Shown piece by piece: positions 2,605 to 23,885 of a stretch of DNA of 23,885 nt (its first letter is position 1; the number at the start of each line of letters is the position of its first letter). The notes below the pieces were generated by a model. It did no database searches. It was given only the letters and a program-made list of their open reading frames with translations, and was not told the origin of the DNA. A program made the translations under genes and the position numbers. The stretch is from positions 1-23,885 of IMG/VR virus record IMGVR_UViG_2778261635_000004; one strand, written 5' to 3'. This stretch comes from a virus. Taxonomy: Duplodnaviria; Heunggongvirae; Uroviricota; Caudoviricetes.

Positions 2605-2950
2605 TCTCTGCTCCTGTTGATACGGAAAAGGAAACAGGCACACCGTTATTACGCCGCCCGGTCAGCTCCACCACCGTTGAACCGTCAAAGTTGCTGTTGA
2701 TGGTGATGGAATCCAGCGTCAGGCGTGGCTCCCAGCGACTCAGCGCCACATACACTGCCGACATGACCTGCAGGCGTAACGCCGGATTTTGTGGCTGGTC
2801 TATCAGTGCCGACAGCAGGGAACCATATTCCCGACGGGCAATGCGGCTACCCTGCGGCGTCAGCAAAATATCCCGCACCGACTGGCGCAGATGGCCAATA
2901 TCAGTAATGGTTTTACCGCTGGTATTATTCATACCGATATAAAGCGTCAT
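2591..2950 (-). CDS. W: Baseplate wedge protein W (gp25-like)
   Basis: 119 aa, size and position match P2 gpW; ATGA overlap with V stop. Confidence 0.8.
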   Translation of the reverse strand: MTLYIGMNNTSGKTITDIGHLRQSVRDILLTPQGSRIARREYGSLLSALIDQPQNPALRLQVMSAVYVALSRWEPRLTLDSITINSNFDGSTVVELTGRRNNGVPVSFSVSTGAENGSD

Positions 2951-3555
2951 ACCGGGCCTCCGGTGGTATCACCGCCTTTCAGGACGCCTGTATGCTGATG
3001 CGTATCAACCACGATTCCGTTAGAACTCATTGCACCGCCGCCCTGGGTAACGCCACCATTGATCACCACTTCGCTGTTAATGCGCGTGCGGTCAGCCTCC
3101 AGTACAAACTCACTGGTTTTCAGGGTGATGTTGTCAGTGGCCTCAATGACCATGGATTTGATGCCCCTGACATACCAGCGCCCGGTGGCGGGTTCGTATT
3201 CAAACCAGCCACCGTCCGGGTATTCCGTCACGTTACCGTCCTCAGAGTCTGAAGGTGGCGGAAACTGGTTTGAGTAGACCGCAGGCAGGGCAAACGCGGT
3301 TTCCAGATTGCCGCCAAGGCTGAACAGCACAACCTGCTCACCCACAGACGGTTTCCACCAGGTGCGCGATTTGCCCGCGCGCAGTGTCAGCCAGTTAATC
3401 CAGTTGGTTTCAAGGTCGCCCGTTTTCACCCGACAAAGCCAGTTTTCCCGGTCCACTTCGGTGACTACACCAGTGCGGATCAGATTGGTGATAAGGCGCA
3501 TGATTTCTGTTAGTTGAGCGTTCATGGCAATTAGATTGCCAAATGCTGCCGTCAT
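2947..3555 (-). CDS. V: Baseplate hub/spike protein V
   Basis: 202 aa; resembles P2 gpV (NLIRTG..., TGGP C-terminus). Alternative start at internal ATG 3525. Weak RBS at both. Confidence 0.8.
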   Translation of the reverse strand: MTAAFGNLIAMNAQLTEIMRLITNLIRTGVVTEVDRENWLCRVKTGDLETNWINWLTLRAGKSRTWWKPSVGEQVVLFSLGGNLETAFALPAVYSNQFPPPSDSEDGNVTEYPDGGWFEYEPATGRWYVRGIKSMVIEATDNITLKTSEFVLEADRTRINSEVVINGGVTQGGGAMSSNGIVVDTHQHTGVLKGGDTTGGPV

Positions 3556-3602: not shown

Positions 3603-4832
3603 TTATTGTGTTAGATCATTAAGTATTGGTGCAATCTCATCGTAAGAGTCGATCCAAATAACATTCACGCCAAATGAATTAGCATCGATTTCTTCAAAAG
3701 TATGCACTGTCTGTAAAAGAGAGGTCGCGATTGCATCCTCATTAATATTCAGTTTATTATCAAATCCATTTCTTGAGTCACTAACAATTCTTTGAATATT
3801 AGCAATCACATCTTCTTTCGAATGTCTACACTTAATTAAATAATGAGGTTTAGAATCATTCCCTCTAAGTTTTTTGGCTGTATCCATCAACCTTCTGAGG
3901 TTTGGATCTGTAAAGGAATGACCAACAAACAGGCAATTTCCATCTTTGAATTTATTCAACTGAACCATATTGCTCCAATGGTATAAATCCATGTATTGCC
4001 TATGATAGCTTTCATCAGAAAGGACTAGCGTGTCATCGAGTTCAACTTTCCCCTGCAATGGGAGATAGCCATGCACATGGTAGATCGGCAGTTCATCATT
4101 TTTTGCATGCTGCCCCGTCTTTGAAATCACCTTATACTTTATACCAACATCAGCTCTAGTTAATGTCTGTTCCAAAATATCATCATAGTTATATGTAATA
4201 ACGGAATCTAGACCTGGTGACTTGCCTGCCGATATGCACAATTTCTTGATTGCTTTCAATGTACTGCTTTCTTCCTCCTGATAATATTCATACAAAACAT
4301 GCTGAATTTCTTTTTCCAAGGGAGTATTAATACCATCAAAGTGTAGTTTTAGATATCTGGCTGCTATGAGTGCGTTCGGACCGAAAACCTCATTAAACAA
4401 AACCGATACCATTTTCTGATTTTCATTTTTATCATCCAAAGCTCTTGCCAATAGCCGCTTTAATAATTCACTCCATGTTGGTATGCTGTAATCTAAAGAA
4501 ATGCCAGCACCTAAAACAAGAACTAAATTCTCCTCTTTAAAAGAGGTCTTCAGGTTCCTCAATACCGTAGTTCTTGTCGCTTGAGAATGGCCCTTTACTT
4601 TTATTTCTAAATTTTTGATAGCATTTGAAGTTAGTTTTTCTATACCACCTGAACGTAGAAAATCCGCGATAATTGCAAAGGTTGATGTTTGAACTGACGT
4701 TGCTGTCGTAGCAACCTCTGCCGCTATGGCCATGGCATCTGCCATAGAGTTCGCTTTTGGTGGTTCAGACTCACTTTTATCTAAATTTGATTTATCAGCT
4801 TTGGGGGACTCATCTTGCTTTTTCATACTCAC
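3603..4832 (-). CDS. SIR2-like (sirtuin-fold, SIR2_2/ThsA-type) stand-alone protein; cargo gene at the S/V junction
   Basis: 409 aa track ORF uses a GTG start; first ATG is at 4826. After a charged N-terminus: LVLVLGAGISLDYSIPTWSELLKRLL (GAGxS Rossmann start), VITYNYDDILE, IYHVHGY, LFVGHSFTDPNLRRL, recalled as the SIR2-like NADase pattern. Markedly AT-rich versus flanking late genes. Confidence 0.6.
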   Translation of the reverse strand: MSMKKQDESPKADKSNLDKSESEPPKANSMADAMAIAAEVATTATSVQTSTFAIIADFLRSGGIEKLTSNAIKNLEIKVKGHSQATRTTVLRNLKTSFKEENLVLVLGAGISLDYSIPTWSELLKRLLARALDDKNENQKMVSVLFNEVFGPNALIAARYLKLHFDGINTPLEKEIQHVLYEYYQEEESSTLKAIKKLCISAGKSPGLDSVITYNYDDILEQTLTRADVGIKYKVISKTGQHAKNDELPIYHVHGYLPLQGKVELDDTLVLSDESYHRQYMDLYHWSNMVQLNKFKDGNCLFVGHSFTDPNLRRLMDTAKKLRGNDSKPHYLIKCRHSKEDVIANIQRIVSDSRNGFDNKLNINEDAIATSLLQTVHTFEEIDANSFGVNVIWIDSYDEIAPILNDLTQ

Positions 4833-4918: not shown

Positions 4919-5365
4919 TCACCCCATTAAGTAACTAGATAAAATTGTTTTAATTTGAAGAGTAGCTTCATCGTTGAAACCCAATAGCCGCCGCTCAGCA
5001 TAACGTACCTCCGGCCCCTTACGACTAACACGATCACGCAGGCCGTAGTGATGAACGCGGGCAATGCGCTGCACCTTACCTTCAAACTGCACGCTGGCAG
5101 AATCGGCGCTGGCGGCAGTTTTCAGGTATTTTTTGGTGCGCAGCTTTGCAAACATCTGACGTTTGATACGGCCTTTTTTACTGCGTGCTGTTACCCGTCG
5201 CGGTTCATAGCTGCTGCCGTCAGGGTTGCGCTGCATCCTGATATTCTGCTGCTGTGTCCGGCGAAGTTCCTGCGCCAGCTGGCGCATCATGCGGCTTCTC
5301 GAGGCTGGTTCCAGATTCGCCAGCAAGGCACTCAACCAGTCGTCCACCTTCTGCAATTCAGCCAC
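4919..5365 (-). CDS. S: Tail completion protein S
   Basis: 148 aa; position and size match P2 gpS; 8-nt overlap with R. Confidence 0.8.
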   Translation of the reverse strand: MAELQKVDDWLSALLANLEPASRSRMMRQLAQELRRTQQQNIRMQRNPDGSSYEPRRVTARSKKGRIKRQMFAKLRTKKYLKTAASADSASVQFEGKVQRIARVHHYGLRDRVSRKGPEVRYAERRLLGFNDEATLQIKTILSSYLMG

Positions 5366-10491: not shown

Positions 10492-12258
10492 ATGAACACC
10501 ACACTGACACCCGCAGATCTCGATCCCCGTCGGCAGGCCATGCTGCTGTACTTTCAGGGATACCGCGTAGCCCGCATTGCTGAAATGCTGGGCGAGAAAG
10601 TTGCAACCGTTCACAGCTGGAAAAAACGCGACAAATGGGGTGACTATGGGCCGCTGGATCAGATGCAGCTCACCACCGCCGCACGCTACTGCCAGCTCAT
10701 CATGAAGGAGCACAAAGAAGGGAAAGATTTCAAAGAGATTGACCTGCTGGCGCGCCAGTCGGAGCGCCACGCGCGGATCGGCAAGTTTAACAATGGCGGC
10801 AACGAAGCCGACTTAAACCCTAACGTCGCCAACCGCAACAAAGGCCCGCGCCGTCAGCCGGAAAAGAATGTCTTCACCGATGAACAGACCGAAAAGCTGG
10901 AGGAAATCTTCCGCAACGGCATGTTTGAATATCAGCGCCACTGGTGGCAGGCAGGCGTAAAACACCGCATTCGCAACCTGCTTAAATCACGCCAGATCGG
11001 GGCAACATACTTTTTTGCCCGCGAAGCGCTGATTGACGCCATCACCACGGGGCGCAACCAGATTTTTCTCTCAGCCAGTAAGGCGCAGGCACACGTTTTT
11101 AAGCAGTACATCATCGACTTTGCAAAAGAGGTGGATGTTGAGCTGAAAGGCGACCCGATGACCCTCAGCAACGGCGCGTGCCTGTACTTCCTCGGCACCA
11201 ACGCCCGCACGGCGCAGAGCTACCACGGCAACCTGTACCTTGATGAATATTTCTGGATACCGAAATTCCAGGAGTTGCGCAAGGTTGCCTCCGGTATGGC
11301 CATTCACAAGAAATGGCGACAAACCTACTTCTCCACGCCGTCCAGCCTGACCCACAGCGCCTATCCGTTCTGGTCTGGCGCGCTGTTCAACCGGGGCCGC
11401 GCCAAAGCAGACAAGGTGGACATTGACCTGACCCACAGCAACCTTGCGCGCGGCGTGCTCTGCCCGGACGGACAATATCGCCAGATCGTCACCGTAGAGG
11501 ATGCGGTGCGCGGTGGCTGTAATCTGTTCGACCTTGACCAGCTGCGCATGGAGTACAGCCCGGACGAATACCAGAACCTGCTGATGTGCGAATTTATTGA
11601 CGATCTGGCGTCAGTATTCCCGCTCAGCGAGCTGCAGGCGTGCATGGTGGACAGCTGGGAAGTGTGGGCAGATTTTCAGGCGCTGGCGCTGCGCCCGTTT
11701 GGCTGGCGCGAAGTCTGGATCGGATACGACCCGGCGAAAGGCACGCAGAACGGTGACAGCGCCGGGTGCGTGGTGGTGGCACCACCAACCGTACCGGGCG
11801 GCAAGTTCCGCATTCTTGAGCGGCACCAGTGGCGCGGGATGGACTTCCGCGCCCAGGCTGACGCTATCAAAAAGCTGACGCAGCAATACAACGTGACCTA
11901 TATCGGCATCGACTCGACCGGCGTCGGTCACGGTGTCTACGAGAACGTGAAAGCGTTCTTTCCTGCCGTGCGGGAGTTTGTCTACAACCCCAACGTCAAA
12001 AACGCCCTGGTGCTCAAGGCATACGACATTATCAGCCACCGGCGTCTGGAGTTCGACGCCGGGCACACCGACATTGCGCAGTCCTTTATGGCTATCCGCC
12101 GGGCCACTACCGCCAGCGGCAACCGCCCAACCTACGAAGCCAACCGCAGCGAAGAAGCCAGCCACGCAGATTTGGCCTGGGCAACGATGCACGCACTGTT
12201 TAACGAACCGCTGCAGGGTGAATCCGCCAATACCAGTAATATCGTGGAGATTTTTTAA
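10492..12258 (+). CDS. P: Terminase large (ATPase) subunit P
   Basis: 588 aa; size and position match P2 gpP; transcribed divergently from O and followed by the portal. Confidence 0.9.
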   Translation: MNTTLTPADLDPRRQAMLLYFQGYRVARIAEMLGEKVATVHSWKKRDKWGDYGPLDQMQLTTAARYCQLIMKEHKEGKDFKEIDLLARQSERHARIGKFNNGGNEADLNPNVANRNKGPRRQPEKNVFTDEQTEKLEEIFRNGMFEYQRHWWQAGVKHRIRNLLKSRQIGATYFFAREALIDAITTGRNQIFLSASKAQAHVFKQYIIDFAKEVDVELKGDPMTLSNGACLYFLGTNARTAQSYHGNLYLDEYFWIPKFQELRKVASGMAIHKKWRQTYFSTPSSLTHSAYPFWSGALFNRGRAKADKVDIDLTHSNLARGVLCPDGQYRQIVTVEDAVRGGCNLFDLDQLRMEYSPDEYQNLLMCEFIDDLASVFPLSELQACMVDSWEVWADFQALALRPFGWREVWIGYDPAKGTQNGDSAGCVVVAPPTVPGGKFRILERHQWRGMDFRAQADAIKKLTQQYNVTYIGIDSTGVGHGVYENVKAFFPAVREFVYNPNVKNALVLKAYDIISHRRLEFDAGHTDIAQSFMAIRRATTASGNRPTYEANRSEEASHADLAWATMHALFNEPLQGESANTSNIVEIF

Positions 12259-13304
12259 TGAGTGAACAAAACGAGGCCGCAAGTCTGGGGACTATCGATC
12301 CACAGCACCTGCCTGACAAAGCAGCCACAGCCGAAGCATTCAGCTTCGGCGATCCGATCCCGGTGTTAGACCGTCGCGAACTTCTTGACTATGTAGAGTG
12401 CGTACAGATGGATCGCTGGTATGAGCCGCCTGTCAGCTTTGACGGACTGGCGCGGACTTACCGTGCCGCGGTGCACCACAGCTCACCGATTGCCGTAAAG
12501 CGTGACATTCTCAGCAGCACTTACATCCCGCACCGCCTGCTCAGCCAGCAGGCTTTTGCCCGTTTCGTCCAGGACTATCTGGTATTCGGTAACGCCTATC
12601 TGGAAAAACGCACCAACCGGCTCGGCGGCGTTCTCTCACTTGAGCCAGCACTAGCGAAATATACACGGCGTGGAGTGGACCTCGAAACCTACTGGTTTGT
12701 GCAGTATGGTCTGACCACACAGCCATATGAATTTACGCGTGGCAACGTCTTCCATCTGATGGAACCGGATATTAACCAGGAGATTTATGGGTTGCCCGGC
12801 TATCTCTCCGCTATCCCATCAACCCTTCTCAACGAGTCCGCAACGCTATTTCGCCGGAAGTATTACATCAACGGCAGCCATGCTGGCTTCATCATGTACA
12901 TGACTGACGCAGCGCAGAATCAGGAGGATGTGAACAATATCCGCCAGGCAATGAAAAGCGCCAAAGGACCAGGTAATTTTCGCAACCTGTTTATGTACTC
13001 CCCCAACGGGAAAAAAGATGGTATCCAGATCATTCCATTGTCCGAGGTGGCAGCAAAAGATGAATTTCTGAACATCAAGAACGTGAGCCGCGATGACATG
13101 ATGGCAGCGCACCGCGTTCCGCCGCAAATGATGGGAATTATTCCCAACAATACAGGCGGTTTTGGTGATGTAGAAAAAGCCAGTCGCGTATTTGTTCGCA
13201 ATGAGTTAATCCCCTTGCAAAAACGTTTGCAGGAATTAAATGACTGGCTTGGGGAAGCAATAATTACATTTTCACCTTATGAATTGGGTGCAGATGTAAA
13301 ATAA
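12258..13304 (+). CDS. Q: Portal protein Q
   Basis: 348 aa; start overlaps P stop; size and position match P2 gpQ. Confidence 0.9.
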   Translation: MSEQNEAASLGTIDPQHLPDKAATAEAFSFGDPIPVLDRRELLDYVECVQMDRWYEPPVSFDGLARTYRAAVHHSSPIAVKRDILSSTYIPHRLLSQQAFARFVQDYLVFGNAYLEKRTNRLGGVLSLEPALAKYTRRGVDLETYWFVQYGLTTQPYEFTRGNVFHLMEPDINQEIYGLPGYLSAIPSTLLNESATLFRRKYYINGSHAGFIMYMTDAAQNQEDVNNIRQAMKSAKGPGNFRNLFMYSPNGKKDGIQIIPLSEVAAKDEFLNIKNVSRDDMMAAHRVPPQMMGIIPNNTGGFGDVEKASRVFVRNELIPLQKRLQELNDWLGEAIITFSPYELGADVK

Positions 13305-13310
13305 TTGGTT

Positions 13311-14084
13311 CTAGCCTCTATTTTTTCTTCTATCCTCACGCCTTTCTTTTGCCTGAGCAAGGCGTTGAGGTTCAGTATATAAACGTTCCAACAATATATA
13401 AGTGAACTCTTCAAGGTCCTCCGCAGCCGCGTAATCTAAAGCTCCTTCATGCGCGCCATCATTGCCATCATCTTTCACACATTCAGCCAAGTCTCTTAAA
13501 GTCTCTGGCAACCGCTGATTATCAAACAACCAATTCATTCTTAACCCTAAGCTTCGCCGTATTTTTTGATTTGGTTCAGTATCTCCCTTAGGTAATAAGT
13601 CCTTAGTTGCATAATCCAAACATAACCTAAACATAGTTCCTGCTGCGTTATAGCAACCAATAGCTAAACACTTAGAACCTTCTACAAAAGCTTCGTGTAT
13701 ATGCTGAGGCAAAAATTCTGGCGGTTCTCCTGCATCTAAGTCTGCTGGACTAATTGGGCGTTTGACTTTTGCAATATCAGTTAGCTTAAATAAGGCCATG
13801 CCCCAGTTAATGCTGCTAAGATCACGTCCCCGATCTAAGCTATCACAAATATATATCGTTGTTTTCTTACACTCCCTGCATACACAATATACCTCATATT
13901 CGGGTAAATTATCGCCGGAAAATGTTTCATACGTACCGCAGCAGTTTGCCCCTAGAACATCAAATGCTATTTTTTGCGCACCACACCTTGGGCAGTTTTC
14001 CACTAACATAGCCATGCAACAGATATCCTTGAAATGGTGATTATTTGTATGTTCTAAATACCATAATTTCTTACTGACAACCAT
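13311..14084 (-). CDS. Cys-rich zinc-ribbon protein with DUF4145-like C-terminal domain; cargo gene between portal and cos
   Basis: 257 aa; CxxC pairs (CPRCG, CRECKK) plus other Cys in the N-terminal 90 aa; C-terminus LRDLAECVKDDGNDGAHEGALDYAAAEDLEEF resembles the DUF4145 pattern as I recall it. AT-rich; only 6 bp from the Q stop (convergent); start codon about 10 nt from the cos-like sequence. Confidence 0.5.
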   Translation of the reverse strand: MVVSKKLWYLEHTNNHHFKDICCMAMLVENCPRCGAQKIAFDVLGANCCGTYETFSGDNLPEYEVYCVCRECKKTTIYICDSLDRGRDLSSINWGMALFKLTDIAKVKRPISPADLDAGEPPEFLPQHIHEAFVEGSKCLAIGCYNAAGTMFRLCLDYATKDLLPKGDTEPNQKIRRSLGLRMNWLFDNQRLPETLRDLAECVKDDGNDGAHEGALDYAAAEDLEEFTYILLERLYTEPQRLAQAKERREDRRKNRG

Positions 14085-14093
14085 GAGCGCGCG

Positions 14094-14112
14094 CTCGTAT
14101 CCCCGCCACGCC
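14094..14112. other. cos-like cohesive-end site
   Basis: Reverse complement reads GGCGTGGCGGGGATACGAG, close to the 19-nt cohesive ends I recall for P2 (GGCGAGGCGGGGAAAGCAC) and 186 (GGCGTGGCGGGGAAAGCAT); next to the portal end of the map as expected. Confidence 0.45.
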
Positions 14113-14121
14113 TGCCCGCTT

Positions 14122-14238
14122 TATGCAGTGGTTTTCATGCACATGCATGACATGAGCAAAAGCCCGCCAGTTCTGGCGGATCTGAGCAAAGACGATCCTC
14201 AATCGATCATGCGATTTCATGCAGCATAGTCATGCACT
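14122..14238. repeat. Cluster of (T)CATGCA hexamer repeats plus a 16-bp palindrome (ccgccag tt ctggcgg, about 14164..14179) flanked by GAGCAAA direct repeats
   Basis: CATGCA or near-copies at about 14122, 14136, 14142, 14208, 14218, 14232; palindrome and flanking repeats read directly from the sequence. Confidence 0.5.
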
Positions 14239-14491
14239 GTCAAGGAAGTGAAAATCCGTATCTGAATGGCCACTTGAAAAACGGATCATACGGGTTTACA
14301 AAGATGAATGTTCGCTGTGAACGGGAAGCGGAAGTTAACTTTCAGATAACATAATCCATATGCACGAGAACCTCTAAAATAGAATGGGACACCTAAGCGG
14401 GGTACTTACAACGATTCTTTCCATATTCACAGTTAACACTCTGTTTGGCGTATTTTTATTCAAATAGCAAACACCAATAAAAGGAGTTTCC

Positions 14492-14827
14492 ATGAACAAT
14501 ATTCCCCCTATACCACAGTTAGGAATTTATGTCTCAAAAATCGATCCCACCCTACGTATCACTGTAACCGATGTTGATATTGTTGATGGTGAGGATGATT
14601 CTCCTGATGATGAATTGTTTTATTTAGTCCACTGGATCGAGGGGGAAGATGAAAGTGATATGACAGCAATGGGATTTGAGCTAGACCCATTAGAGTGGCA
14701 GGCTTTCGTTGAATCTGAGCAATTAGTGTTTGAGCGTGATCCGTACATGGATTCAATCCCCGAAAATTCAAACTTGGCAAAGATTCGGGATTTTCTCATG
14801 AAGACTAAACAGAATGATCATTCGTAA
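14492..14827 (+). CDS. Small, highly acidic hypothetical protein (Asp/Glu-rich), cargo gene
   Basis: 111 aa with strong RBS (aaaggag 7 nt before ATG); D/E runs (DGEDDSPDDE, EGEDESD); AT-rich. Confidence 0.65.
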   Translation: MNNIPPIPQLGIYVSKIDPTLRITVTDVDIVDGEDDSPDDELFYLVHWIEGEDESDMTAMGFELDPLEWQAFVESEQLVFERDPYMDSIPENSNLAKIRDFLMKTKQNDHS

Positions 14828-14981
14828 GTGTAAGCATCCATCAGGAAAATGGTTTTGTAAGTGAATCATCAACTTTTAGAGAGTCTCAGACACTCCCACT
14901 TCTGCTTCTGACACAAAGCGGACGATCACTTATCAAAATAACCGCCCACCTTACGCCTTATTTCACTCATTGCCCAAACTA

Positions 14982-15011
14982 GCCCCCATCAGAATGAATC
15001 CTCCTGGGGGC
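14982..15011. terminator. Possible bidirectional terminator hairpin between convergent genes
   Basis: GCCCCCA ... TGGGGGC inverted repeat (7-bp arms) between the acidic-protein gene and the convergent DinI-like gene; loop is long (16 nt) and the U-run weak. Confidence 0.25.
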
Positions 15012-15019
15012 AACATTTC

Positions 15020-15253
15020 TTAATGCAGCCAGCTGTCGTCCTCCCACACCTTCTGCATAATTTTCATCACTTGTTTTCTTTCTTCATCCAGTTGCAGTCC
15101 GGTTAGTTCCACACCGTTAGAGCTACCTTTGCGAATGCGAATTACCGTTTTGGGATACAGGGGGCGCAGATTGCGGTAAAGCTCGGATTCAAGTGCGTCC
15201 AAGGTAGACTGGCTAATCTTCTGCTCTTTATCGATCATTATTTCAATGCGCAT
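15020..15253 (-). CDS. DinI-family protein (SOS-induced RecA modulator homologue)
   Basis: Track ORF 15020..15325; the likely start is the internal ATG at 15253 (GAGGTG upstream), giving 77 aa. MRIEIMIDKEQ...ALESELYRNL...QKVWEDDSW follows the recalled E. coli DinI pattern (MRIEVTI..., ...TWE...W). Confidence 0.75.
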   Translation of the reverse strand: MRIEIMIDKEQKISQSTLDALESELYRNLRPLYPKTVIRIRKGSSNGVELTGLQLDEERKQVMKIMQKVWEDDSWLH

Positions 15254-15263
15254 AAAAGTCACC

Positions 15264-15452
15264 TCAGCTGATGACATCCATTGAGCGGTTGTATTCGTGG
15301 CTTCTGATTTTTGCCATGAGTTCATCAGTCAATTCAGAAACCCACTGCAGAGCCAGCCCCTTCTCTTCATCACTACACTCACTAGCCGCTACAAGCTTAA
15401 GAAAAAAATCAATGCGCTGGAGCTTCAAAGACTCCAAAAAATAGTCCTGCAT
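15264..15452 (-). CDS. Small hypothetical protein, first gene of the LexA-controlled operon (candidate Tum-like antirepressor part)
   Basis: 62 aa from the ATG at 15452 with AGGAGG 5 nt upstream; the longer track ORF (to 15554) would run through the LexA box and promoter. Confidence 0.5.
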   Translation of the reverse strand: MQDYFLESLKLQRIDFFLKLVAASECSDEEKGLALQWVSELTDELMAKIRSHEYNRSMDVIS

Positions 15453-15494
15453 CTTTCCTCCTATGACACCAAAACAATACTGTATGCATAACCA

Positions 15495-15510
15495 CTGTTT
15501 ATATTTACAG
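15495..15510 (-). promoter_or_regulatory. LexA (SOS) box overlapping a promoter for the small-protein/DinI-like operon
   Basis: CTGTttatatttACAG matches CTGT-N8-ACAG with AT-rich spacer and flanking ca/ta; about 40 nt upstream of the 15452 start; TTTACA -35-like hexamer just upstream on the coding strand. Confidence 0.7.
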
Positions 15511-15605
15511 TATATAATAATCTTACTGATGTAAAACGTTTTTTTTACGTTCATCGGCCTGATATGCCTGGTATTATTAAGAGCACGAATTGTTAACCCG
15601 CGTAA

Positions 15606-18020
15606 TTAATACAGGTTCCGCCACTTATCATCTTCCTTCAGACGCTGGTTCCGATAGAAGATACGCAGGCCTGCTCCTGACGGAATACTGCCGCCGCGAA
15701 GGAGCAAATCGACTTCTTTCTCGCTGCCATCAAATCCCCTGGACTTCAGTTCATAGACGAGCTGCTGTCGCTGATGGTCTGTAATTCGCTGTTTGTAGTC
15801 TTTACGCCGTTTCGGTTTCACCTGGCGTAACCTTGCAGCCAGTTCCCGGCGCTCTTTTTTGCTCATACTGTGCAGGTAATCGTGCAACTCCTTGTCATTC
15901 ATACGGGTAATATCCGTTCTGGAGTCCCCATCAGCTGATTTGTCTTTCCCTTGTTGGTTCAAATTTTCAGCAAGGGGACAGTTATTGCCACGAGTCCAAG
16001 GGGCGCAAGCGCCCTGGTCGGCTACCGCCTCCTGAACGTCAACGGCCTTACGAACCATTTTCCACTTCACTGCATGAGTGCAGATCTTGCCCTCTGCAAT
16101 GGGTGACCAGATGCCATAAATACGAATGCCGTGATCGCCATAGGCGGTCGGCTCTTCGTTGATTTCATAAGCGGTTCTGATAAGGTGATATTTACGGGGA
16201 ACCAGTACGCCGCCCTGCTTCATGATGTAGGTGGCAAAACAACCAGCATCAGCAGCAGCCAGGATGGCATCAAGGCGCGGGTCATCCAGTATCGGCGCAC
16301 CTGCTTTTTTGTCACCCTGTTGCCTTGCCGCCTGACCAGCCAGCAAGCGAAGTTCACGGTAAGCCTGACGTCCCGGAATACCAAAGAAGCGGAACTGCTG
16401 AACACGATGCAGAGACGCCCAGGCATTAACGTATTCGGCGTTATCACGCAGGGATTTACCCGTTTCCTTGCTGATCTCGCCAGCCAGACCACGCCCGTCA
16501 ATGTTCTTACTGATGTATTTCGCGATGTAGCTTGTCGGTGTTCCTTTGCGCCGGTTAATCAGCTCAGACTTAAAGCGTGGCCCCGTGTTGTTGCCCAGCT
16601 CCTCGCGGTCTACACGGATGGCAAACTTACGCAGTAATGCAGTGATGGCGCGGCGGTCTTTTTTACGCATGAAGCACATGAGATGCCAGTGCACAGTACC
16701 GTCATGGTGCGGCTCAGCCACCCGCACGCCATACCAGCGCAACCCGGTTTTGTGCATTGCCTTACGAAATGCAGCAAACATGCCGACCATATAATCGCTG
16801 CTTTGTCTTACCGTCGCATTTGTCCAGGTCGGGTTGGGTCTGCCGTTGTTGAGCGTGGAATGGAAACGTGACGGACAGGTGATAGTGTAGAAAACGGCGC
16901 AGTCACCGCGCATTTCCGCGATAAGCTCCAGACCTTTAACACAGGCCATCATCTCATTGCGGCGATGCGCAGGGTTGCTGCTGCTGGCGTTTACCACATC
17001 CTCCATGTCCAGCGTGTCGCCGTCTTCGTTCACCAGTTCATGAGAACGGAAAAACTCCAGCGACTTACGGCGCTGCTCACGTTTATGCATCACGGCTTCA
17101 TAGCTGACATAGGGAGATGCTTTTTTGCTGACCAGGCAGACAGCACGCAACTGCTCTTCCCGCCATTCGCAACGCATCTTCCATAATTTCCCATACCACC
17201 AGTCGGCGCACAACATACGCGCCAGCGAACCCGGAATGAGTTCATAGGGCACGGGTTTACGGCGGTTTCTTTTCCGACGGAGTTGCTCAAACGCAGGTGG
17301 GATGACATCCAGACGCAGGGTTTCCGCCGCCACCTTTTCCCATGTCTTGCGGATTTCTTCTGGCTTAACGTCATCGGTGGCATACAAATCGCCACAAGCT
17401 GCATCAAGGCACATGCTCATATGCGCAGCTACCAGGGTGGACAGGCGTTTCACCTGATCCTGACTCATTTCAGGCAGGATCAGCAGGCCCTCCAGCCCTT
17501 GATGGCTTGCCATAAAACGGAAAGAAGCAGACAGCTGACTGTCACGTACACAATCCAGTCGCTCCAGACATGGCTTAATCGTCTCACGCAAATAGCGGGA
17601 ATAAGCCTTTGGCCTGCCCAGGCTGCTGAAGTATTCGATACGTTGCATCAGCGGCTTGCTAATATGGGTGGGCTGGGCGCTGACGTCCGCCAGAATGACC
17701 ATGTCCGGGTTAAAACGCTGCTGTTCATGCGCTAGCTTTGCCCGGCTAATGAGCTTATCCTGCTCCATTTCGCGCTGGACAGGATCACGAGATTCATTAA
17801 AGAAATAACGCTCCCAGACCTGCTCACTCAGTGCATCGCGGCGCAGCTGTTCCTGCTCATTATCGGCAGCGTACAGAGTGATCAGGTTTAAAAGTGCAGA
17901 CTCCGGAGCAACTTCCGCCGGGTCCAGATAAGGGTTAATGGCCTTTTTCGGGCCGTTCCATGAAAATGCTGCAGCGGCCTCGTTAAAGCCGCTAGAGTTG
18001 CTCATATCGTCATGACTCAT
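15606..18020 (-). CDS. A: Replication initiation protein A (rolling-circle endonuclease)
   Basis: 804 aa; HUH-like motif [10 protein letters not shown] and active-site tyrosine motif YIAKYISK; GAGGTG RBS; start overlaps the Dam stop. Confidence 0.9.
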
Positions 18021-19911: not shown

Positions 19912-20421
19912 TCACAGCAAACCGAATGAGGCACCGAGGCCAGTCACGGTATCAACTGCACTCGCCATCGCAGGATTAGCCTGTAAACGGGCCTGCAATG
20001 AAACAGCAGCCAGCGCCATCAGTCGTGTAACAGAGTTAATGCTGCTGATCGCATCACGACGGCCTGCACTGGTTTTTACATCGCCAGAAACCGCACCTGC
20101 TGCGACACGCCCTATCTCTGCAGTTGCACTCATAACGTAATGCGGCAGTTTCTCTTTCGCTACCTCATTAATCGGAACACATGGCAGACAATGAATCTGT
20201 GCCAGAAAACCATCTACCAGCGTTGAATCTTCAGTCAGATCGGTAAGCAGCCAGATTTCTGGTGCGGTTAATAAATGAGGTTGAGCTGGGTTCAGCTTGT
20301 TCCGCAGAATCTGTACATTTATGCCTGCACGTTCTGCCAGTTGCACCAGGTTGTGGCGCAGTGCAAATGCACGACAGGCTTCATCAAAATGTGGATGTTT
20401 GGAAACTTTATAATCAAACAT
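19912..20421 (-). CDS. 186 CII-like lysogeny-establishment regulator (alternatively P2 B-like)
   Basis: Track ORF starts with TTG at 20430; the ATG at 20421 (GGAG upstream) gives 169 aa, the size I recall for 186 CII; first large gene downstream of the Apl/Cox-like gene. Confidence 0.5.
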
Positions 20422-20485
20422 AGTTTTCAACTCCGAACTTATCGCAAAATCGAACTCACCGTCTTATTGCGAAAGTAGACGGTTA

Positions 20486-20689
20486 TTAAGCAGACAAAGC
20501 ATCAACTGTCAGAGCAACCAGGTTAATCATTACCTTTTCACGTTTTTTGTCTTTTCGAAGACGATGACGAGGTAGTCGGCCATCAGCCAACATATCGTTA
20601 ATCGTATCAATAGAAAGGCCTGTCAGTTCGCTATAACGTTCGATCGTGACATGTGGTGTATTCAGAGTAATTGAAATGTTAGGTGTCAT
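20486..20689 (-). CDS. Apl/Cox-like small DNA-binding protein (lytic-side switch protein / excision directionality)
   Basis: 67 aa from the ATG at 20689 (AAGGAA upstream); basic, HTH-like (ERYSELTGLSIDTINDMLADGRL); divergent from the repressor gene. Confidence 0.55.
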   Translation of the reverse strand: MTPNISITLNTPHVTIERYSELTGLSIDTINDMLADGRLPRHRLRKDKKREKVMINLVALTVDALSA

Positions 20690-20834
20690 AAGGCAACATT
20701 CCTTATAGATATGGCTTGTGGCGAGCCGTAGTTTGTCGTGATTAGTAGTGAAGGCTCCAAAAGAACACTTCTGGTTCAACTTTAAGATCGCTTTTGGAAT
20801 CTGTCAACGAATTTTGGATTTCCTTGGAGGACTC
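20690..20834. promoter_or_regulatory. Lysis-lysogeny switch region (divergent genes; operators/promoters not resolved)
   Basis: 145-bp intergenic region between the divergent Apl/Cox-like and CI genes; inverted repeat CCAAAAG (about 20757) / CTTTTGG (about 20791) and direct repeats TTTTGGA(A/T)T (about 20793 and 20813). Confidence 0.4.
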
Positions 20835-21410
20835 ATGGATTTCAGCAGCGGTGGTAAGAAAGTCATTGAACGTCTAGTTGAGGCGTACGGGTTCTCTACG
20901 AGACAAGCTCTTTGCGATCATTTGGGAGTATCCAAGAGCACCATGGCTACACGTTACATGCGAGACATCTTCCCTGCAGATTGGGTTTTGCAATGTGCTA
21001 TTGAAACTGGTTATCCACTAGAATGGCTGGCATTCGGTATAGGGGACAAAAAACCCTCAAATATAAATGCACAAATTTTGGTACCAAAGAAAAAATTAAT
21101 TTCAGGAACGTTAATTGAAGATGGAGCATATATTTTTGATAAAACATTCTTACCTGAAAAAATATGTAATCCGTTCATCATTCAAGATCTGGATAACGAA
21201 TACATATGTAGCTTTGAATATAATGACATAAGCGATGGATTGTGGCTAATAGGCATAGACGAAAAAATTTCGGTCCGAACCCTGACCCGCTTACCTAATA
21301 ACAGGTTATATGTTGAAGGAGGAAATCGTGGCTTTGAGTGTTCCAGAGATGAAATACAGGTTATTGGAATTGTGTGGTGCTGCATACTAAGAAGAGCAGA
21401 AAAATTTTAG
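20835..21410 (+). CDS. cI: Immunity repressor, phage 186 CI-like
   Basis: Internal ATG at 20835 with GGAGG RBS gives 191 aa (186 CI is about 192 aa as I recall); N-terminal HTH-like segment (GFSTRQALCDHLGVSKSTMATRYMR); divergent from Apl/Cox. Confidence 0.7.
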   Translation: MDFSSGGKKVIERLVEAYGFSTRQALCDHLGVSKSTMATRYMRDIFPADWVLQCAIETGYPLEWLAFGIGDKKPSNINAQILVPKKKLISGTLIEDGAYIFDKTFLPEKICNPFIIQDLDNEYICSFEYNDISDGLWLIGIDEKISVRTLTRLPNNRLYVEGGNRGFECSRDEIQVIGIVWCCILRRAEKF

Positions 21411-21441
21411 TACTCAATATATTAAATAACTGGAGTTCTAA

Positions 21442-22773
21442 ATGCCTATTGAATATACGTTTGATTATCGTGATGAGTTCCTTCGTAAGCCTATTGCTGA
21501 AAAATTAATAGCTCTACTGAACTCTGATATTAACTTATCTCCGCTGGTTATAGATGGCGGATGGGGCACGGGAAAAACAGAGTTTTGCAAAAAAGTTGCA
21601 AATCTAATTGAAAACAATAATCAAAAACATAAAGTAGTTTACATTGATGCTTTCGCTGAAGATCATAATGATGCCCCCATTTTGACGTTAATGGCAGGTG
21701 TTGCTGCACTTTTGCCCGAAGACAAACGAAAAGAGTTGATAAGCAAAACACTACCAGCAATACGTTTTGGTTTGAAAACCATTTTCAAAGCTGGCACTGG
21801 ATGGGTGTTAAAACAAAATGCAGATGACATTGTTGATGGCTTCGAAGATGCTATCAAAGAAGCCACTTCGAGTGCAATCGACAGTACAATTGAAACATTA
21901 TTAGACGATCATATAGAAGCACAGAAAAACATCGAGACATTGAGAAATACAATTTCGCAACTTACAGAGAAATTTAAAATAACGATTATTATAGACGAAC
22001 TGGACAGATGTAAACCTACATTCGCTCTTTCAATCATAGAAAATATTAAACACATTTTTGAAATAAAAAACTTGAATTTTGTTTTGGTTGCAAAGACTCA
22101 ACAACTCAAAGCATCAATAAGCCATCTGTATGGTTTATCCATAAATGCAGAACAGTATTTAGACAAATTCATAAAATTTACATTTGTATTGCCCGATACA
22201 TTTAAACCAGACAACTATACACCTGCATACGCATCTGTCGCTTTATGGGAAATATTAAAAAATGATTCTCAAAGACTGCAAGAAGTAAACGAAGAATGCG
22301 GGCATATTATAAAAACGATAATACAAAGAGCTAAGTTGTCTTTACGTGAAGTAGAAACATTATCGCGCCATTTTGAAATATATCAGGTGCTATCTCAATC
22401 TGGAATTGGTCCAGAAAAAATATTTGGTTATTCATTATACCGAACGTTAGGAGTGATGCTATATTCTCTAAATCGCCCTTTGGCATTAAGCTATCTAGAT
22501 AATTCTGTGGATGCAGAAAGTACTATCAAAACATTAGGCTTTGAATATTTAAGTTATGATGAGGATATTTATAGTGTAGATAATACTGAATATGCTATTT
22601 ATGGGATCGTACTAGACTATATTGATGCAACATCTCCATTCTTTATAAAGGATGATGAAACCAGAAAAAAATGGACTGAACATGCTACCTATAGTTTCTT
22701 TCAAAAGGGCTTAAATACTGTTCCTCCCCGAAAACTTGTTTCGTCCGCCATTGAAGTTTTAATGCTCAACTAA
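21442..22773 (+). CDS. KAP-family P-loop NTPase, stand-alone cargo gene in the lysogenic operon
   Basis: 443 aa; Walker A GGWGTGKT with the KAP-typical Trp; Walker B IIIDELDRC; hydrophobic insert (APILTLMAGVAALLP) between them; AT-rich; 31 nt after the CI stop on the same strand with GGAG RBS; integrase follows. Confidence 0.8.
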   Translation: MPIEYTFDYRDEFLRKPIAEKLIALLNSDINLSPLVIDGGWGTGKTEFCKKVANLIENNNQKHKVVYIDAFAEDHNDAPILTLMAGVAALLPEDKRKELISKTLPAIRFGLKTIFKAGTGWVLKQNADDIVDGFEDAIKEATSSAIDSTIETLLDDHIEAQKNIETLRNTISQLTEKFKITIIIDELDRCKPTFALSIIENIKHIFEIKNLNFVLVAKTQQLKASISHLYGLSINAEQYLDKFIKFTFVLPDTFKPDNYTPAYASVALWEILKNDSQRLQEVNEECGHIIKTIIQRAKLSLREVETLSRHFEIYQVLSQSGIGPEKIFGYSLYRTLGVMLYSLNRPLALSYLDNSVDAESTIKTLGFEYLSYDEDIYSVDNTEYAIYGIVLDYIDATSPFFIKDDETRKKWTEHATYSFFQKGLNTVPPRKLVSSAIEVLMLN

Positions 22774-22806
22774 AGATGTATAATTGACTGATTTCATACA
22801 TTGACA

Positions 22807-22822
22807 CTGATTATATATACAG
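22807..22822 (+). promoter_or_regulatory. LexA-box-like dyad (CTGA-N8-ACAG) inside a candidate promoter just upstream of int
   Basis: TTGACA (22801..22806) followed by CTGAttatatatACAG: one mismatch to CTGT-N8-ACAG, with both CTG/CAG triplets intact; int ATG is at 22854. Confidence 0.3.
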
Positions 22823-22853
22823 TAAAAATGCTCTCCACTGGAGGGCATTTTTT

Positions 22854-23885
22854 ATGGCAGTACGAAAACTCACCACAGGAAAATGGCTTTGCGAATGTTA
22901 CCCCGCCGGACGTAGTGGGCGTCGTGTGCGTAAACAATTCGCCACCAAAGGCGAAGCACTGGCTTTTGAGCGTCACACGATGGAAGAAACCGAAGCAAAG
23001 CCCTGGCTGGGTGAATCAGTGGATCGTCGAACACTGAAAGACGTGGTTGAGCTATGGTTCAAACTACATGGTAAATCTCTGACAGCTGGGCAGCATGTCT
23101 ATGACAAATTGCTGTTGATGGTTGACGCTCTAGGCAATCCTCTTGCAACCGATCTCACCTCTAAAATGTTTGCCCACTATCGAGATAAACGCCTGACAGG
23201 CGAGATCTACTTCAGCGAGAAATGGAAGAAAGGAGCAAGCCCGGTCACCATTAACCTGGAGCAAAGCTATCTAAGTAGTGTTTTTAGCGAACTATCCCGT
23301 CTGGGCGAATGGTCGTATCCGAACCCACTGGAGAACATGCGAAAATTCACCATCGCAGAAAAAGAGATGGCATGGCTTACCCATGAGCAGATTGTTGAAT
23401 TGCTGGCTGATTGCAAACGTCAGGACCCAATTCTGGCACTGGTAGTTAAGATATGCTTAAGCACAGGCGCACGCTGGCGTGAAGCCGTAAATCTTACCCG
23501 CTCACAGGTGACCAAATACCGAATTACCTTTGTAAGAACGAAGGGGAAGAAAAACAGAAGCATCCCTATCAGTAAAGAGCTTTACGAAGAGATCATGGCG
23601 CTTGATGGGTTCAATTTCTTCACAGACTGCTATTTTCAATTTTTATCCGTGATGGAAAAAACGTCTATCGTGCTCCCTCGCGGTCAACTGACACACGTTC
23701 TGCGCCATACGTTTGCGGCGCATTTCATGATGTCGGGTGGAAATATCCTTGCTTTGCAAAAAATCCTCGGACATCACGACATAAAAATGACCATGCGTTA
23801 CGCACATCTGGCACCGGATCACCTGGAAACTGCATTACGGTTTAATCCGCTGGCAACACTACCAACATCAACAGCAACTGTTTGA
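22854..23885 (+). CDS. int: Tyrosine integrase (P2/186-type)
   Basis: 343 aa complete ORF with GGAGGG RBS; C-terminal catalytic region HVLRHTFAAHFMMSGGNILALQKILGHHDIKMTMRYAHL (R...H..R...Y pattern). Confidence 0.9.
   Translation: MAVRKLTTGKWLCECYPAGRSGRRVRKQFATKGEALAFERHTMEETEAKPWLGESVDRRTLKDVVELWFKLHGKSLTAGQHVYDKLLLMVDALGNPLATDLTSKMFAHYRDKRLTGEIYFSEKWKKGASPVTINLEQSYLSSVFSELSRLGEWSYPNPLENMRKFTIAEKEMAWLTHEQIVELLADCKRQDPILALVVKICLSTGARWREAVNLTRSQVTKYRITFVRTKGKKNRSIPISKELYEEIMALDGFNFFTDCYFQFLSVMEKTSIVLPRGQLTHVLRHTFAAHFMMSGGNILALQKILGHHDIKMTMRYAHLAPDHLETALRFNPLATLPTSTATV

What the first reader, a model, noticed from the sequence alone, without database searches (positions are those of the whole stretch)
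21442..22773. Stand-alone KAP NTPase inserted between the CI repressor and integrase, apparently expressed in the lysogen
The protein has the textbook KAP P-loop signature (GGWGTGKT, IIIDELDRC) with a hydrophobic insert between the Walker motifs. It sits where P2 and 186 have nothing, as I recall: directly after the repressor and before int, same strand, 31-nt gap, own RBS, no visible terminator. That places it on the lysogenic transcript, the classic layout for a prophage-encoded superinfection-exclusion or abortive-infection gene. It is strongly AT-rich against a GC-richer backbone, and no partner gene is present. I cannot place it in a named defence family from memory.
Basis: partly seen in the sequence, partly recalled or inferred. 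Interest (0 to 1): 0.8.

Follow-up and report, generated by a model that had tools for sequence, protein, structure and literature searches.

The report
Prophage KAP NTPase, candidate anti-phage gene
A 186-like E. coli prophage carries, between its repressor and integrase genes, an intact single-gene ATPase of an already catalogued but untested candidate anti-phage family (PADLOC PDC-S20), in a slot where sister prophages carry known defence genes, so it is a sound but fairly ordinary defence candidate.

Summary
ORF 21442-22773 (+) encodes a 443-aa KAP P-loop NTPase (Pfam 9.9e-52) with Walker A aa 39-46 and Walker B aa 182-190. It lies 31 nt after a 186-type CI gene and 80 nt before int. Phages 186 and P2 have nothing there.

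One detail is wrong. The insert between the Walker motifs is not a membrane segment (maximum hydropathy 1.09). It is a conserved amphipathic segment.

The protein can be placed. It matches PADLOC candidate family PDC-S20 over its full length (5e-174). That family was predicted by embedding in defence loci and has not been validated.

The CI-int slot is a cargo hotspot. Sister prophages at the same E. coli attachment site carry Old, PD-Lambda-1, an OLD-like ATPase, two other KAP alleles, unknown genes, or only a tiny ORF.

The family recurs at this slot in Serratia and Yersinia, and at the Q-holin site of lambdoid prophages. The nearest solved folds are the defence ATPases RdrA (RADAR) and BrxC (BREX). 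dN/dS is 0.19, and no effector domain is recognisable.

Verdict: a new member of a known kind. A defence role is likely (about 0.8) but untested, and the mechanism is inferred. Interest is about 0.35.

The parts
20835..21410 (+). 186-type CI repressor gene, first gene of the lysogenic operon. The mechanical ORF starts at GTG 20748; the likely start is ATG 20835, with GGAGG at 20826-20830.
   Evidence: Pfam Phage_CI_repr 2.3e-29 and Phage_CI_C 1.7e-23. The RefSeq CI of the sister strain is 191 aa.
21011..22853 (.). AT-rich mosaic block: CI C-terminal domain, KAP gene and spacer.
   Evidence: Identity to the YdcA-type sister prophage L018 stops at 21010 and resumes at 22774. GC runs 0.475, then 0.352, 0.342, 0.312, then 0.477.
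21411..21441 (+). 31-nt CI-KAP spacer with a GGAG ribosome-binding site at 21432-21435. No terminator-like site.
   Evidence: Sequence and terminator scan.
21442..22773 (+). KAP P-loop NTPase gene, 443 aa, PADLOC candidate family PDC-S20.
   Evidence: Pfam PF07693 9.9e-52. PADLOC PDLC04956 5e-174 over aa 4-442. dN/dS 0.19 against the 93% allele.
21556..21579 (+). Walker A, GGWGTGKT (aa 39-46).
   Evidence: G39, W41, G42, G44 and K45 are invariant in 70 homologues.
21760..21912 (+). Conserved insert within the NTPase domain (aa 107-157). It is amphipathic and not transmembrane, and the structure model has low confidence here.
   Evidence: pLDDT below 50, yet column entropy is only about 1.0-1.4 and there are 0 nonsynonymous against 3 synonymous changes. 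Maximum hydropathy is 1.09. The basic half is aa 93-125 and the acidic half aa 126-177.
21985..22011 (+). Walker B, IIIDELDRC (aa 182-190).
   Evidence: D185, E186, L187, D188, R189 and C190 are invariant.
22387..22770 (+). Variable all-helical C-terminal domain (aa 316-443), the candidate specificity or sensor region. No recognisable effector fold.
22801..22829 (+). Conserved promoter-like element just 5' of int (TTGACA, 17 nt, AAAAAT). It overlaps a LexA (SOS) box, CACTGATTATATATACAGTA, at 22805-22824. It marks the right border of the cargo slot.
   Evidence: Promoter scan. The -35 element, CTG-N10-CAG and -10 element are conserved in all 10 sister prophages whose aligned stretch covers this region, including Serratia and Yersinia. 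The window has 2 SOS-box matches against 0 expected.
22824..22852 (+). Hairpin AAAAAUGCUCUCC-ACU-GGAGGGCAUUUUU followed by U, ending at the int ATG. It is terminator-like and occludes the int Shine-Dalgarno sequence.
   Evidence: Free energy -24.7 kcal/mol, z -4.8 to -5.0. Equivalent hairpins with different stems occur in sister lineages, but the RNAalifold consensus is weak.
22854..23885 (+). Tyrosine integrase, 343 aa.
   Evidence: Pfam Int_N 3e-32 and Phage_integrase 6.7e-22. 95-98% identical in more than 1000 E. coli genomes.

Best explanation
The gene is prophage cargo. It encodes a soluble, single-protein KAP P-loop NTPase of PADLOC candidate family PDC-S20 and sits in the variable CI-int slot of a 186-like E. 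coli prophage. It is most likely made in the lysogen from the CI transcript and protects the lysogen against other phages.

Shown here: an intact Walker A and B NTPase core with a conserved non-membrane insert, an AAA+-type lid and a fast-evolving small helical C-terminal domain; purifying selection; hotspot position; recurrent prophage-moron contexts.

Inferred: the protein acts as a nucleotide-dependent switch of the RdrA, STAND or PifA type. The variable C-terminal domain, possibly together with the insert, recognises a phage product. NTP-dependent oligomerisation follows. Because no enzymatic effector domain exists, the output is then either ATP consumption, or membrane or nucleotide leakage as reported for the TM-less KAP protein PifA, or direct sequestration of a phage component.

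Read-through from CI probably ends at the hairpin and U-run just before int. In that case CI and KAP would form the lysogen-expressed unit.
For: - Identity: Pfam KAP_NTPase 9.9e-52 and a full-length PADLOC PDC-S20 match at 5e-174.
- Hotspot: the conserved int block begins at 22774-22796 in more than 1000 E. coli genomes, while the sequence upstream varies.
- Slot contents in sister prophages at the same rcdA/ybjJ attachment site: Old (1.4e-234), PD-Lambda-1 (3e-120), a 660-aa OLD-like ATPase-TOPRIM, a 505-aa PDC-S20 variant, a 55%-identical 443-aa KAP allele, unknown proteins, or only a 63-aa ORF.
- Recurrence: the same family occupies the CI-int slot in Serratia and Yersinia prophages.
- Other contexts: it lies beside antiterminator Q on the opposite strand in lambdoid prophages of Salmonella, Citrobacter and Klebsiella, and next to type I RM and a Tn7-like element in Vibrio.
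- Viral contigs: of the best 80 relatives, 27 are of the CI/int type and 48 of the Q type.
- Selection: dN/dS is 0.19, the insert is invariant at protein level, and the C-terminus is variable.
- Operon logic: phage 186 transcribes cI and int from pL. Here the gap is 31 nt, a GGAG site is present and no terminator is seen.
- Literature: other KAP NTPases give Walker-B-dependent phage defence (PMC13552941), the single-gene KAP system 'Reve' from P4 hotspots protects E. coli (PMC13586616), and PifA lacks TM helices and causes membrane depolarisation and nucleotide leakage (PMC13001434).
Against: - No experiment exists for this protein or, as far as I could find, for PDC-S20. PDC systems are explicitly called unvalidated, and the name appears in no paper of the library.
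- No effector domain and no partner gene were found, so the output step is guesswork.
- Expression from pL is inferred from layout only.
- The allele is rare: 15 of 5426 complete E. coli genomes. In one strain it is split by an IS element, so it is dispensable.
- The matches to PifA, QatA and RdrA cover only the NTPase core.
Confidence: 0.62

Rival explanations
1. The gene has a housekeeping role in the prophage's own life cycle. On this view it is an NTPase that modulates CI, Int or excision because it lies inside the lysogenic operon, and it is not a defence gene.
For: It lies between CI and int on the same strand. The AT-rich mosaic block couples the CI C-terminal domain and the KAP gene as one inherited unit. 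The fold resembles ORC/Cdc6, DnaA and TnsC-type DNA-handling ATPases.
Against: It is absent from 186, P2 and most sister prophages with the same int. Unrelated defence genes replace it in the same slot. The same family occurs without CI or int at the Q-holin site of lambdoid prophages and beside an RM system. An IS-disrupted copy persists in a resident prophage.
Confidence: 0.07
2. The gene is a selfish or addiction-type toxic ATPase, or an exclusion factor aimed at plasmids or conjugation rather than phages. The primary role of PifA has also been questioned.
For: It shares a KAP core with plasmid-borne PifA (1e-16). The literature notes that phage restriction may not be PifA's primary function. 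The family was found embedded in RM, BREX and DISARM loci, which also act on plasmids.
Against: There is no antitoxin-like partner. The family is strongly enriched at prophage moron sites. Neighbouring occupants of the slot are anti-phage systems.
Confidence: 0.1
3. The gene is a non-functional or decaying passenger, a moron with no current activity.
For: It is rare, and one copy is disrupted by an IS element. It has a foreign AT-rich composition.
Against: dN/dS is 0.19, with 51 synonymous and 40 nonsynonymous changes between alleles. All catalytic motifs are invariant across 70 homologues, and length is uniform at about 440-455 aa among the homologues listed from more than 2000 matches. The structure model is confident outside the insert.
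Confidence: 0.05
4. The gene is one part of a multi-component system. It would need a host factor, or the small ORF seen next to it in relatives (YdcA-like 61 aa, or a 160-aa ORF in Yersinia).
For: The 55% allele is preceded by a YdcA-family ORF. The Yersinia copies are preceded by a 160-aa ORF. CI-KAP distances cluster at 35, about 230-250, about 550-580 and at least 1000 nt. No effector domain is present in the KAP protein.
Against: In this window the gap is 31 nt with no extra ORF. The Serratia and lambdoid contexts show no conserved neighbour. The YdcA-like ORF also occurs alone in slots without a KAP gene.
Confidence: 0.12

Closest known systems
PADLOC phage defence candidate PDC-S20 (Payne et al., bioRxiv 10.1101/2024.01.29.577857)
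   Same: Full-length HMM match (PDLC04956, 5e-174, aa 4-442 of a 450-position profile). It is a single-gene KAP NTPase of about 445 aa.
   Different: PDC families were defined by embedding in BREX, DISARM or type I RM loci and are unvalidated. This copy is prophage cargo in the CI-int slot and is not embedded in such a system.
PifA of the F plasmid (KAP family; excludes phage T7)
   Same: It has a KAP NTPase core without transmembrane helices and is a single protein carried by a mobile element.
   Different: The match covers only aa 35-252 against a 720-position profile (1e-16). PifA is much longer and has other C-terminal regions. No T7 gp1.2 or gp10 trigger is known here.
RdrA, the ATPase of the RADAR defence system (PDB 8fnt, 8fnu)
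   Different: RdrA is about 800 aa and works with the adenosine deaminase RdrB. No RdrB-like neighbour is present, there is no PADLOC RdrA hit, and sequence identity is 14-15%.
Experimentally validated KAP-domain defence proteins: EF_KAP and three gut-metagenome KAP fusions (PMC13552941), and 'Reve' from a P4 satellite hotspot (PMC13586616)
   Same: All are single-gene, KAP-NTPase-based and carried on mobile elements or in hotspots. Walker B is required in EF_KAP.
   Different: EF_KAP has two TM helices and a 322-aa C-terminal region of unknown function. Here there is no TM helix and only about 128 aa beyond the Pfam domain. Reve was picked from P4 loci without identifiable defence genes, so it may be a different KAP lineage.
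P2 Old and Tin, and the defence hotspots of P2-like prophages (Rousset et al. 2022, PMC9122126; NAR 2026, PMC13586616)
   Same: Lysogen-expressed, AT-rich cargo genes in fixed slots of P2-like prophages that exclude other phages. A cI-int hotspot is described for K139-like Vibrio phages, and an integrase-primase hotspot holds 8% of P2 systems. Old itself occupies this very slot in a sister prophage.
   Different: The main described E. coli P2 hotspot lies between gpA and gpQ. The E. coli 186-like CI-int slot and its occupants are not described individually in the papers I could read.
Tmn (YobI-family transmembrane NTPase) and QatA
   Same: P-loop NTPases used in phage defence, with a weak QatA hit (6.5e-12 in PADLOC; 42.9 bits in NCBIfam).
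   Different: Tmn has two TM helices inside the P-loop domain, and none is present here. The QatA score is far below the 600-bit cut-off and no QatBCD genes are present.

Membership tests
KAP family P-loop NTPase (Pfam PF07693) | Profile match above the curated cut-off | tested here: met
   176.4 bits against a cut-off of 20, E 9.9e-52, aa 15-315 covering profile positions 1-290 of 293.
KAP family P-loop NTPase (Pfam PF07693) | Walker A GxxGxGK[ST] and Walker B hhhhDE(L)DR separated by a long insert | tested here: met
   GGWGTGKT is aa 39-46 and IIIDELDRC is aa 182-190. Both are invariant in 70 homologues.
KAP family P-loop NTPase (Pfam PF07693) | Transmembrane helices associated with the NTPase domain. 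This is typical of many members but not universal; PifA lacks them. | tested here: not met
   The maximum 19-residue Kyte-Doolittle mean is 1.09, so no TM segment is present. The insert is amphipathic and charged.
PADLOC PDC-S20 | Full-length match to a PDC-S20 HMM | tested here: met
   PDLC04956 5e-174, 577.9 bits, aa 4-442 covering profile positions 5-448 of 450.
PADLOC PDC-S20 | Association with, or embedding in, BREX, DISARM or type I RM loci (the discovery criterion) | tested here: inconclusive
   This copy is not embedded. One 42%-identical homologue in Vibrio harveyi lies beside hsdM/hsdS and a Tn7-like element. Most of the viral-contig relatives examined (75 of the best 80) are prophage morons.
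PADLOC PDC-S20 | Demonstrated anti-phage activity | not testable with these tools
   PDC systems are stated to be unvalidated, and no paper mentions PDC-S20.
PifA (F-plasmid T7 exclusion) | Full-length similarity to PifA | tested here: not met
   Only aa 35-252 match, covering profile positions 43-255 of 720, E 1e-16.
RADAR (RdrA and RdrB) | RdrA-type ATPase with an adjacent RdrB adenosine deaminase | tested here: not met
Qat (QatABCD) | QatA equivalog score and QatB/C/D neighbours | tested here: not met
   NCBIfam QatA scores 42.9 bits against a cut-off of 600. No partner genes are present.
Tmn / YobI transmembrane NTPases | Two TM helices inserted within the P-loop domain | tested here: not met
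   No TM segment and no Tmn hit in PADLOC.
Cargo of a P2-like prophage defence hotspot | Variable gene content between conserved flanking genes at one position in related prophages | tested here: met
   At least nine different contents were found between CI and the conserved int leader in prophages sharing an int that is 88-98% identical. The E. coli examples share the rcdA/ybjJ attachment site.
Cargo of a P2-like prophage defence hotspot | Known defence systems among the alternative occupants | tested here: met
   Old 1.4e-234, PD-Lambda-1 3e-120, and OLD/AriA-like ATPase-TOPRIM proteins.
Cargo of a P2-like prophage defence hotspot | Expression from the prophage in the lysogenic state | not testable with these tools
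   Only layout is available: a 31-nt gap to CI, its own ribosome-binding site and no terminator, together with the 186 pL operon model.

The most novel reading that the evidence does not exclude
PDC-S20 proteins may be a minimal, effector-less class of immune NTPase. On this reading the P-loop core with its conserved amphipathic insert (standing where other KAPs carry TM helices) is itself the effector, and the fast-evolving 128-aa helical tail is the phage sensor. In 186-like prophages the protein would be delivered through a dedicated 'lysogen-only' expression slot. The slot is closed on its right side by a LexA-controlled int promoter and by a leader hairpin that terminates or occludes read-through, so cargo can be swapped without disturbing integrase control.
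Probability: 0.2. Interest if true: 0.55.

Novelty: new member of a known kind. Interest (0 to 1): 0.35.

Why it matters
If the gene is confirmed, an unvalidated PADLOC candidate family (PDC-S20) would become a real defence system. More than 2000 homologues were recovered here, and 375 of the scanned viral contigs encode relatives. The protein would also be a compact, soluble, single-protein KAP NTPase, which is convenient for working out how effector-less P-loop sensors stop phages.

The locus also documents the CI-int junction of E. coli, Serratia and Yersinia 186-like prophages as a swap-in slot for defence genes. Its borders are sharp, which is useful for mining further candidates such as the 314-aa and 349-aa unknown proteins found there. 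None of this is conceptually surprising, given published work on P2/P4 hotspots and on KAP NTPases in defence.

Tried and rejected
- Transmembrane insert: rejected by hydropathy.
- Sequence search of the PDB: no hit.
- Foldseek against AFDB50: the library was unavailable.
- Membership in RADAR, Qat, Tmn or PifA: rejected (see the membership table).
- Literature for 'PDC-S20': none found.
- 'Reve' KAP system: I tried to get its sequence to compare, but no supplementary files are held, so whether this gene is a Reve homologue stays open.
- Rfam and tRNA scans of the window: nothing found.
- RNAalifold on the int-leader hairpins: the consensus was weak (-2.8 kcal/mol) because the stems are out of register between lineages. 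I therefore do not claim proven covariation.
- Own promoter for the KAP gene: only low-scoring AT-rich consensus hits were found inside CI or the KAP gene, and these are not above expectation in a meaningful way (15 found against 10.1 ± 2.7 expected).

Full report
**What is in the sequence.** The window is part of a P2/186-like (Peduoviridae) prophage of E. coli. It is 100% identical over 20400-23885 to strain E9 from poultry. Other genes confirm the type: terminase, portal, replication protein A, Dam methylase, and the 186-type CII, Apl-like and CI genes.

ORF 21442-22773 (+) is real. It has an ATG start with GGAG six nt upstream, encodes 443 aa, and carries GGWGTGKT at aa 39-46 and IIIDELDRC at aa 182-190. 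Pfam KAP_NTPase matches at 9.9e-52 over aa 15-315.

The gene begins 31 nt after the stop of a 186-type CI gene (Phage_CI_repr plus Phage_CI_C; likely start ATG 20835). It ends 80 nt before int, 22854-23885. The scan finds no terminator-like site on the + strand between CI and the KAP gene. In phage 186 the cI stop overlaps the int start. In P2 only 115 bp without a gene separate C and int.

**Corrections to the observation.**
- The insert between the Walker motifs is long (135 aa) but is not a membrane insert. The highest 19-residue Kyte-Doolittle mean in the whole protein is 1.09.
- The insert has a basic amphipathic half (aa 93-125, 8 K/R against 3 D/E) and an acidic half (aa 126-177, 4 against 13).
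- It is the least confident part of the AlphaFold model (pLDDT below 50 for aa 107-157), yet it is among the best conserved parts of the protein. F109, G110, K112, T113, K116, A117 and G118 are invariant or nearly so. There are 0 nonsynonymous and 3 synonymous changes between the two close alleles.
- The AT-rich block does not begin at the KAP gene. Identity to a sister prophage with the same CI N-terminus stops at 21010, after the CI helix-turn-helix domain, and resumes at 22774, the first base after the KAP stop. GC runs 0.475 (CI 5' part), 0.352 (CI 3' part), 0.342 (KAP), 0.312 (spacer) and 0.477 (int).

**What kind of protein it is.** More than 2000 homologues of uniform length (about 440-455 aa) occur in Enterobacterales, Vibrio and other bacteria. 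In a 70-sequence alignment the NTPase motifs are invariant. The last 128 aa are highly variable: entropy is 2.2-2.95, and the two 443-aa E. coli alleles found in this slot are 32% identical there against 63-75% in the core.

Between the window allele and its 93%-identical relative dN/dS is 0.19 (C-terminus 0.31), so the gene is under purifying selection.

**Named family.** PADLOC-DB places the protein, over its full length, in 'PDC-S20' (5e-174). Hits to PifA (1e-16) and QatA (6.5e-12) are weak and cover the core only. PDCs are 145 'phage defence candidates' predicted from genes embedded in BREX, DISARM and type I RM loci. They are explicitly regarded as unvalidated, and no paper in the library mentions PDC-S20.

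**The slot is a hotspot.** The int gene and its leader are 88-98% identical in 1134 of 5426 complete E. coli genomes. The identity starts sharply at window 22774-22796. Between CI and that border, sister prophages at the same rcdA/ybjJ attachment site carry:
- only a 63-aa YdcA-family ORF;
- P2-type Old (PADLOC 1.4e-234);
- PD-Lambda-1 (3e-120, in Escherichia phage vB_EcoM-813R9);
- a 660-aa OLD-like ATPase-TOPRIM;
- a 505-aa PDC-S20 variant (EPEC strain E2348/69);
- a 55%-identical 443-aa KAP allele;
- an unknown protein of 314 aa. Klebsiella phage 4LV2017, which shares the int, carries an unknown protein of 349 aa in the same position.

The three KAP alleles occur in 15, 9 and 17 complete genomes. 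One copy of the window allele is split by ISKpn26.

**Other contexts.** The same family occupies the CI-int slot in Serratia and Yersinia prophages at 46-47% identity. In lambdoid prophages of Salmonella Typhimurium, Citrobacter and Klebsiella it sits alone, on the opposite strand, between antiterminator Q and the lysis genes. In Vibrio harveyi it lies beside hsdM/hsdS and a Tn7-like element. Of the best 80 of 375 IMG/VR contigs with relatives, 27 are of the CI/int type, 48 of the Q type and 5 other. No neighbour is conserved across contexts, so 'stand-alone' holds.

**Transcription logic (inferred).** In phage 186, pL transcribes cI and int. Here the tight coupling to CI argues for co-transcription in the lysogen.

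The 80-nt spacer before int belongs to the conserved int module. It contains TTGACA (22801-22806) and a near-consensus SOS box, CACTGATTATATATACAGTA (22805-22824). That box is one of only two such matches in the window, with none expected by chance. The other lies upstream of the Tum/DinI-like genes. An AT-rich -10 element follows, and then a 13-bp hairpin with a U-run (22824-22852, -24.7 kcal/mol, z about -5) whose 3' arm contains the int Shine-Dalgarno sequence.

The -35 element, the CTG-N10-CAG box and the -10 element are conserved in all 10 sister prophages whose aligned stretch covers them, including Serratia and Yersinia. Each lineage has a hairpin over the Shine-Dalgarno sequence, although a joint RNAalifold consensus is weak.

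My reading is as follows. Read-through CI-KAP transcripts end or are translationally closed at this hairpin, so CI and the cargo form the lysogen-expressed unit. Int is made from its own LexA-controlled promoter, which would start inside the 5' arm of the hairpin. This is untested.

**Mechanism.** The domain anatomy, conservation pattern and contexts are shown. The mode of action is inferred: a nucleotide-dependent switch of the RdrA/STAND/PifA type. The variable tail, perhaps with the insert, would recognise a phage product and oligomerisation would follow. Because no enzymatic domain is present, the output would be ATP consumption, a PifA-like membrane or nucleotide-leak effect (PifA also lacks TM helices), or sequestration of a phage component. 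I put the defence role at about 0.8 and any specific output step at no more than 0.3.

**Comparison with the literature.** Prophage hotspots in P2-like phages are established. A cI-int hotspot has been shown for K139-like Vibrio phages, and an 'integrase-primase' hotspot accounts for 8% of P2 systems. KAP NTPases are experimentally linked to defence through EF_KAP and three other KAP fusions, 'Reve' from a P4 hotspot, PifA and QatA. I could not obtain the Reve sequence. Reve was chosen from P4 loci without identifiable defence genes, so it may be a different KAP lineage.

**Verdict.** The finding is real and its interpretation is largely right, but it is a new member of known kinds: the PDC-S20 candidate family and P2-like prophage hotspot cargo. 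Interest is about 0.35. The more original leads are secondary: the effector-less architecture with a conserved non-membrane insert, and the LexA-box and hairpin gate that closes the cargo slot.

Noticed in passing
window 22801-22853; also L012, L013, L015, L016, L017, L002, L005, L022, L026 just 5' of int: A conserved promoter-like element overlaps a near-consensus LexA (SOS) box, CACTGATTATATATACAGTA (22805-22824). It is followed by a hairpin that occludes the int Shine-Dalgarno sequence and, in E. coli, ends in a U-run at the int ATG. This suggests an SOS-controlled int promoter and termination or occlusion of read-through from the CI-cargo transcript. I found no paper describing it.
   Followed up: partly
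window 15493-15512: The second SOS-box match, CACTGTTTATATTTACAGTA, lies upstream of the minus-strand small ORF 15264-15554 and the DinI-like gene 15020-15325. This is probably the equivalent of the LexA-controlled p95/tum induction module of phage 186.
   Followed up: no
window 3603-4832 (-): An AT-rich island (GC 0.36-0.38) encodes a 408-aa SIR2_2-domain protein (Pfam 3.2e-20; weak PADLOC LmuA and ThsA hits). It lies between tail gene S (4919-5365) and baseplate V (2947-3555), the position of P2 orf30. It is a second candidate defence cargo.
   Followed up: partly
window 13311-15554: An AT-rich region lies between portal Q (12258-13304) and replication gene A (15606-18020), the classical P2 old/tin hotspot. 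It holds a 256-aa DUF4145 protein with a weak PD-T7-4 hit (6e-6) and an unknown 111-aa ORF at 14492-14827.
   Followed up: partly
window 21010/21011 (inside CI) and 22773/22774: Mosaic breakpoints. The CI helix-turn-helix part is shared at 91% with a sister prophage, but the CI C-terminal domain travels with the KAP gene as one AT-rich block. The right breakpoint is the base after the KAP stop.
   Followed up: partly
L013 1255-2190; L015 1510-2430; also L001, L016, L017: Several sister prophages have CI proteins of about 290-313 aa. In the two that I scanned (L013, L015) there are two Phage_CI_repr matches, suggesting a duplicated helix-turn-helix domain. E2348/69 has a normal 189-aa CI followed by such a long CI and then the KAP variant.
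   Followed up: no
L016 3027-3971 and L001 2313-3362: Proteins of 314 aa and 349 aa occupy the same CI-int slot and have no Pfam or PADLOC match. By position they are untapped defence candidates.
   Followed up: no
NZ_CP178694.1 (strain VTB97432v), equivalent to window about 22162: The otherwise identical KAP allele is interrupted by an IS5-like ISKpn26 element after nucleotide 721 of the gene.
   Followed up: no
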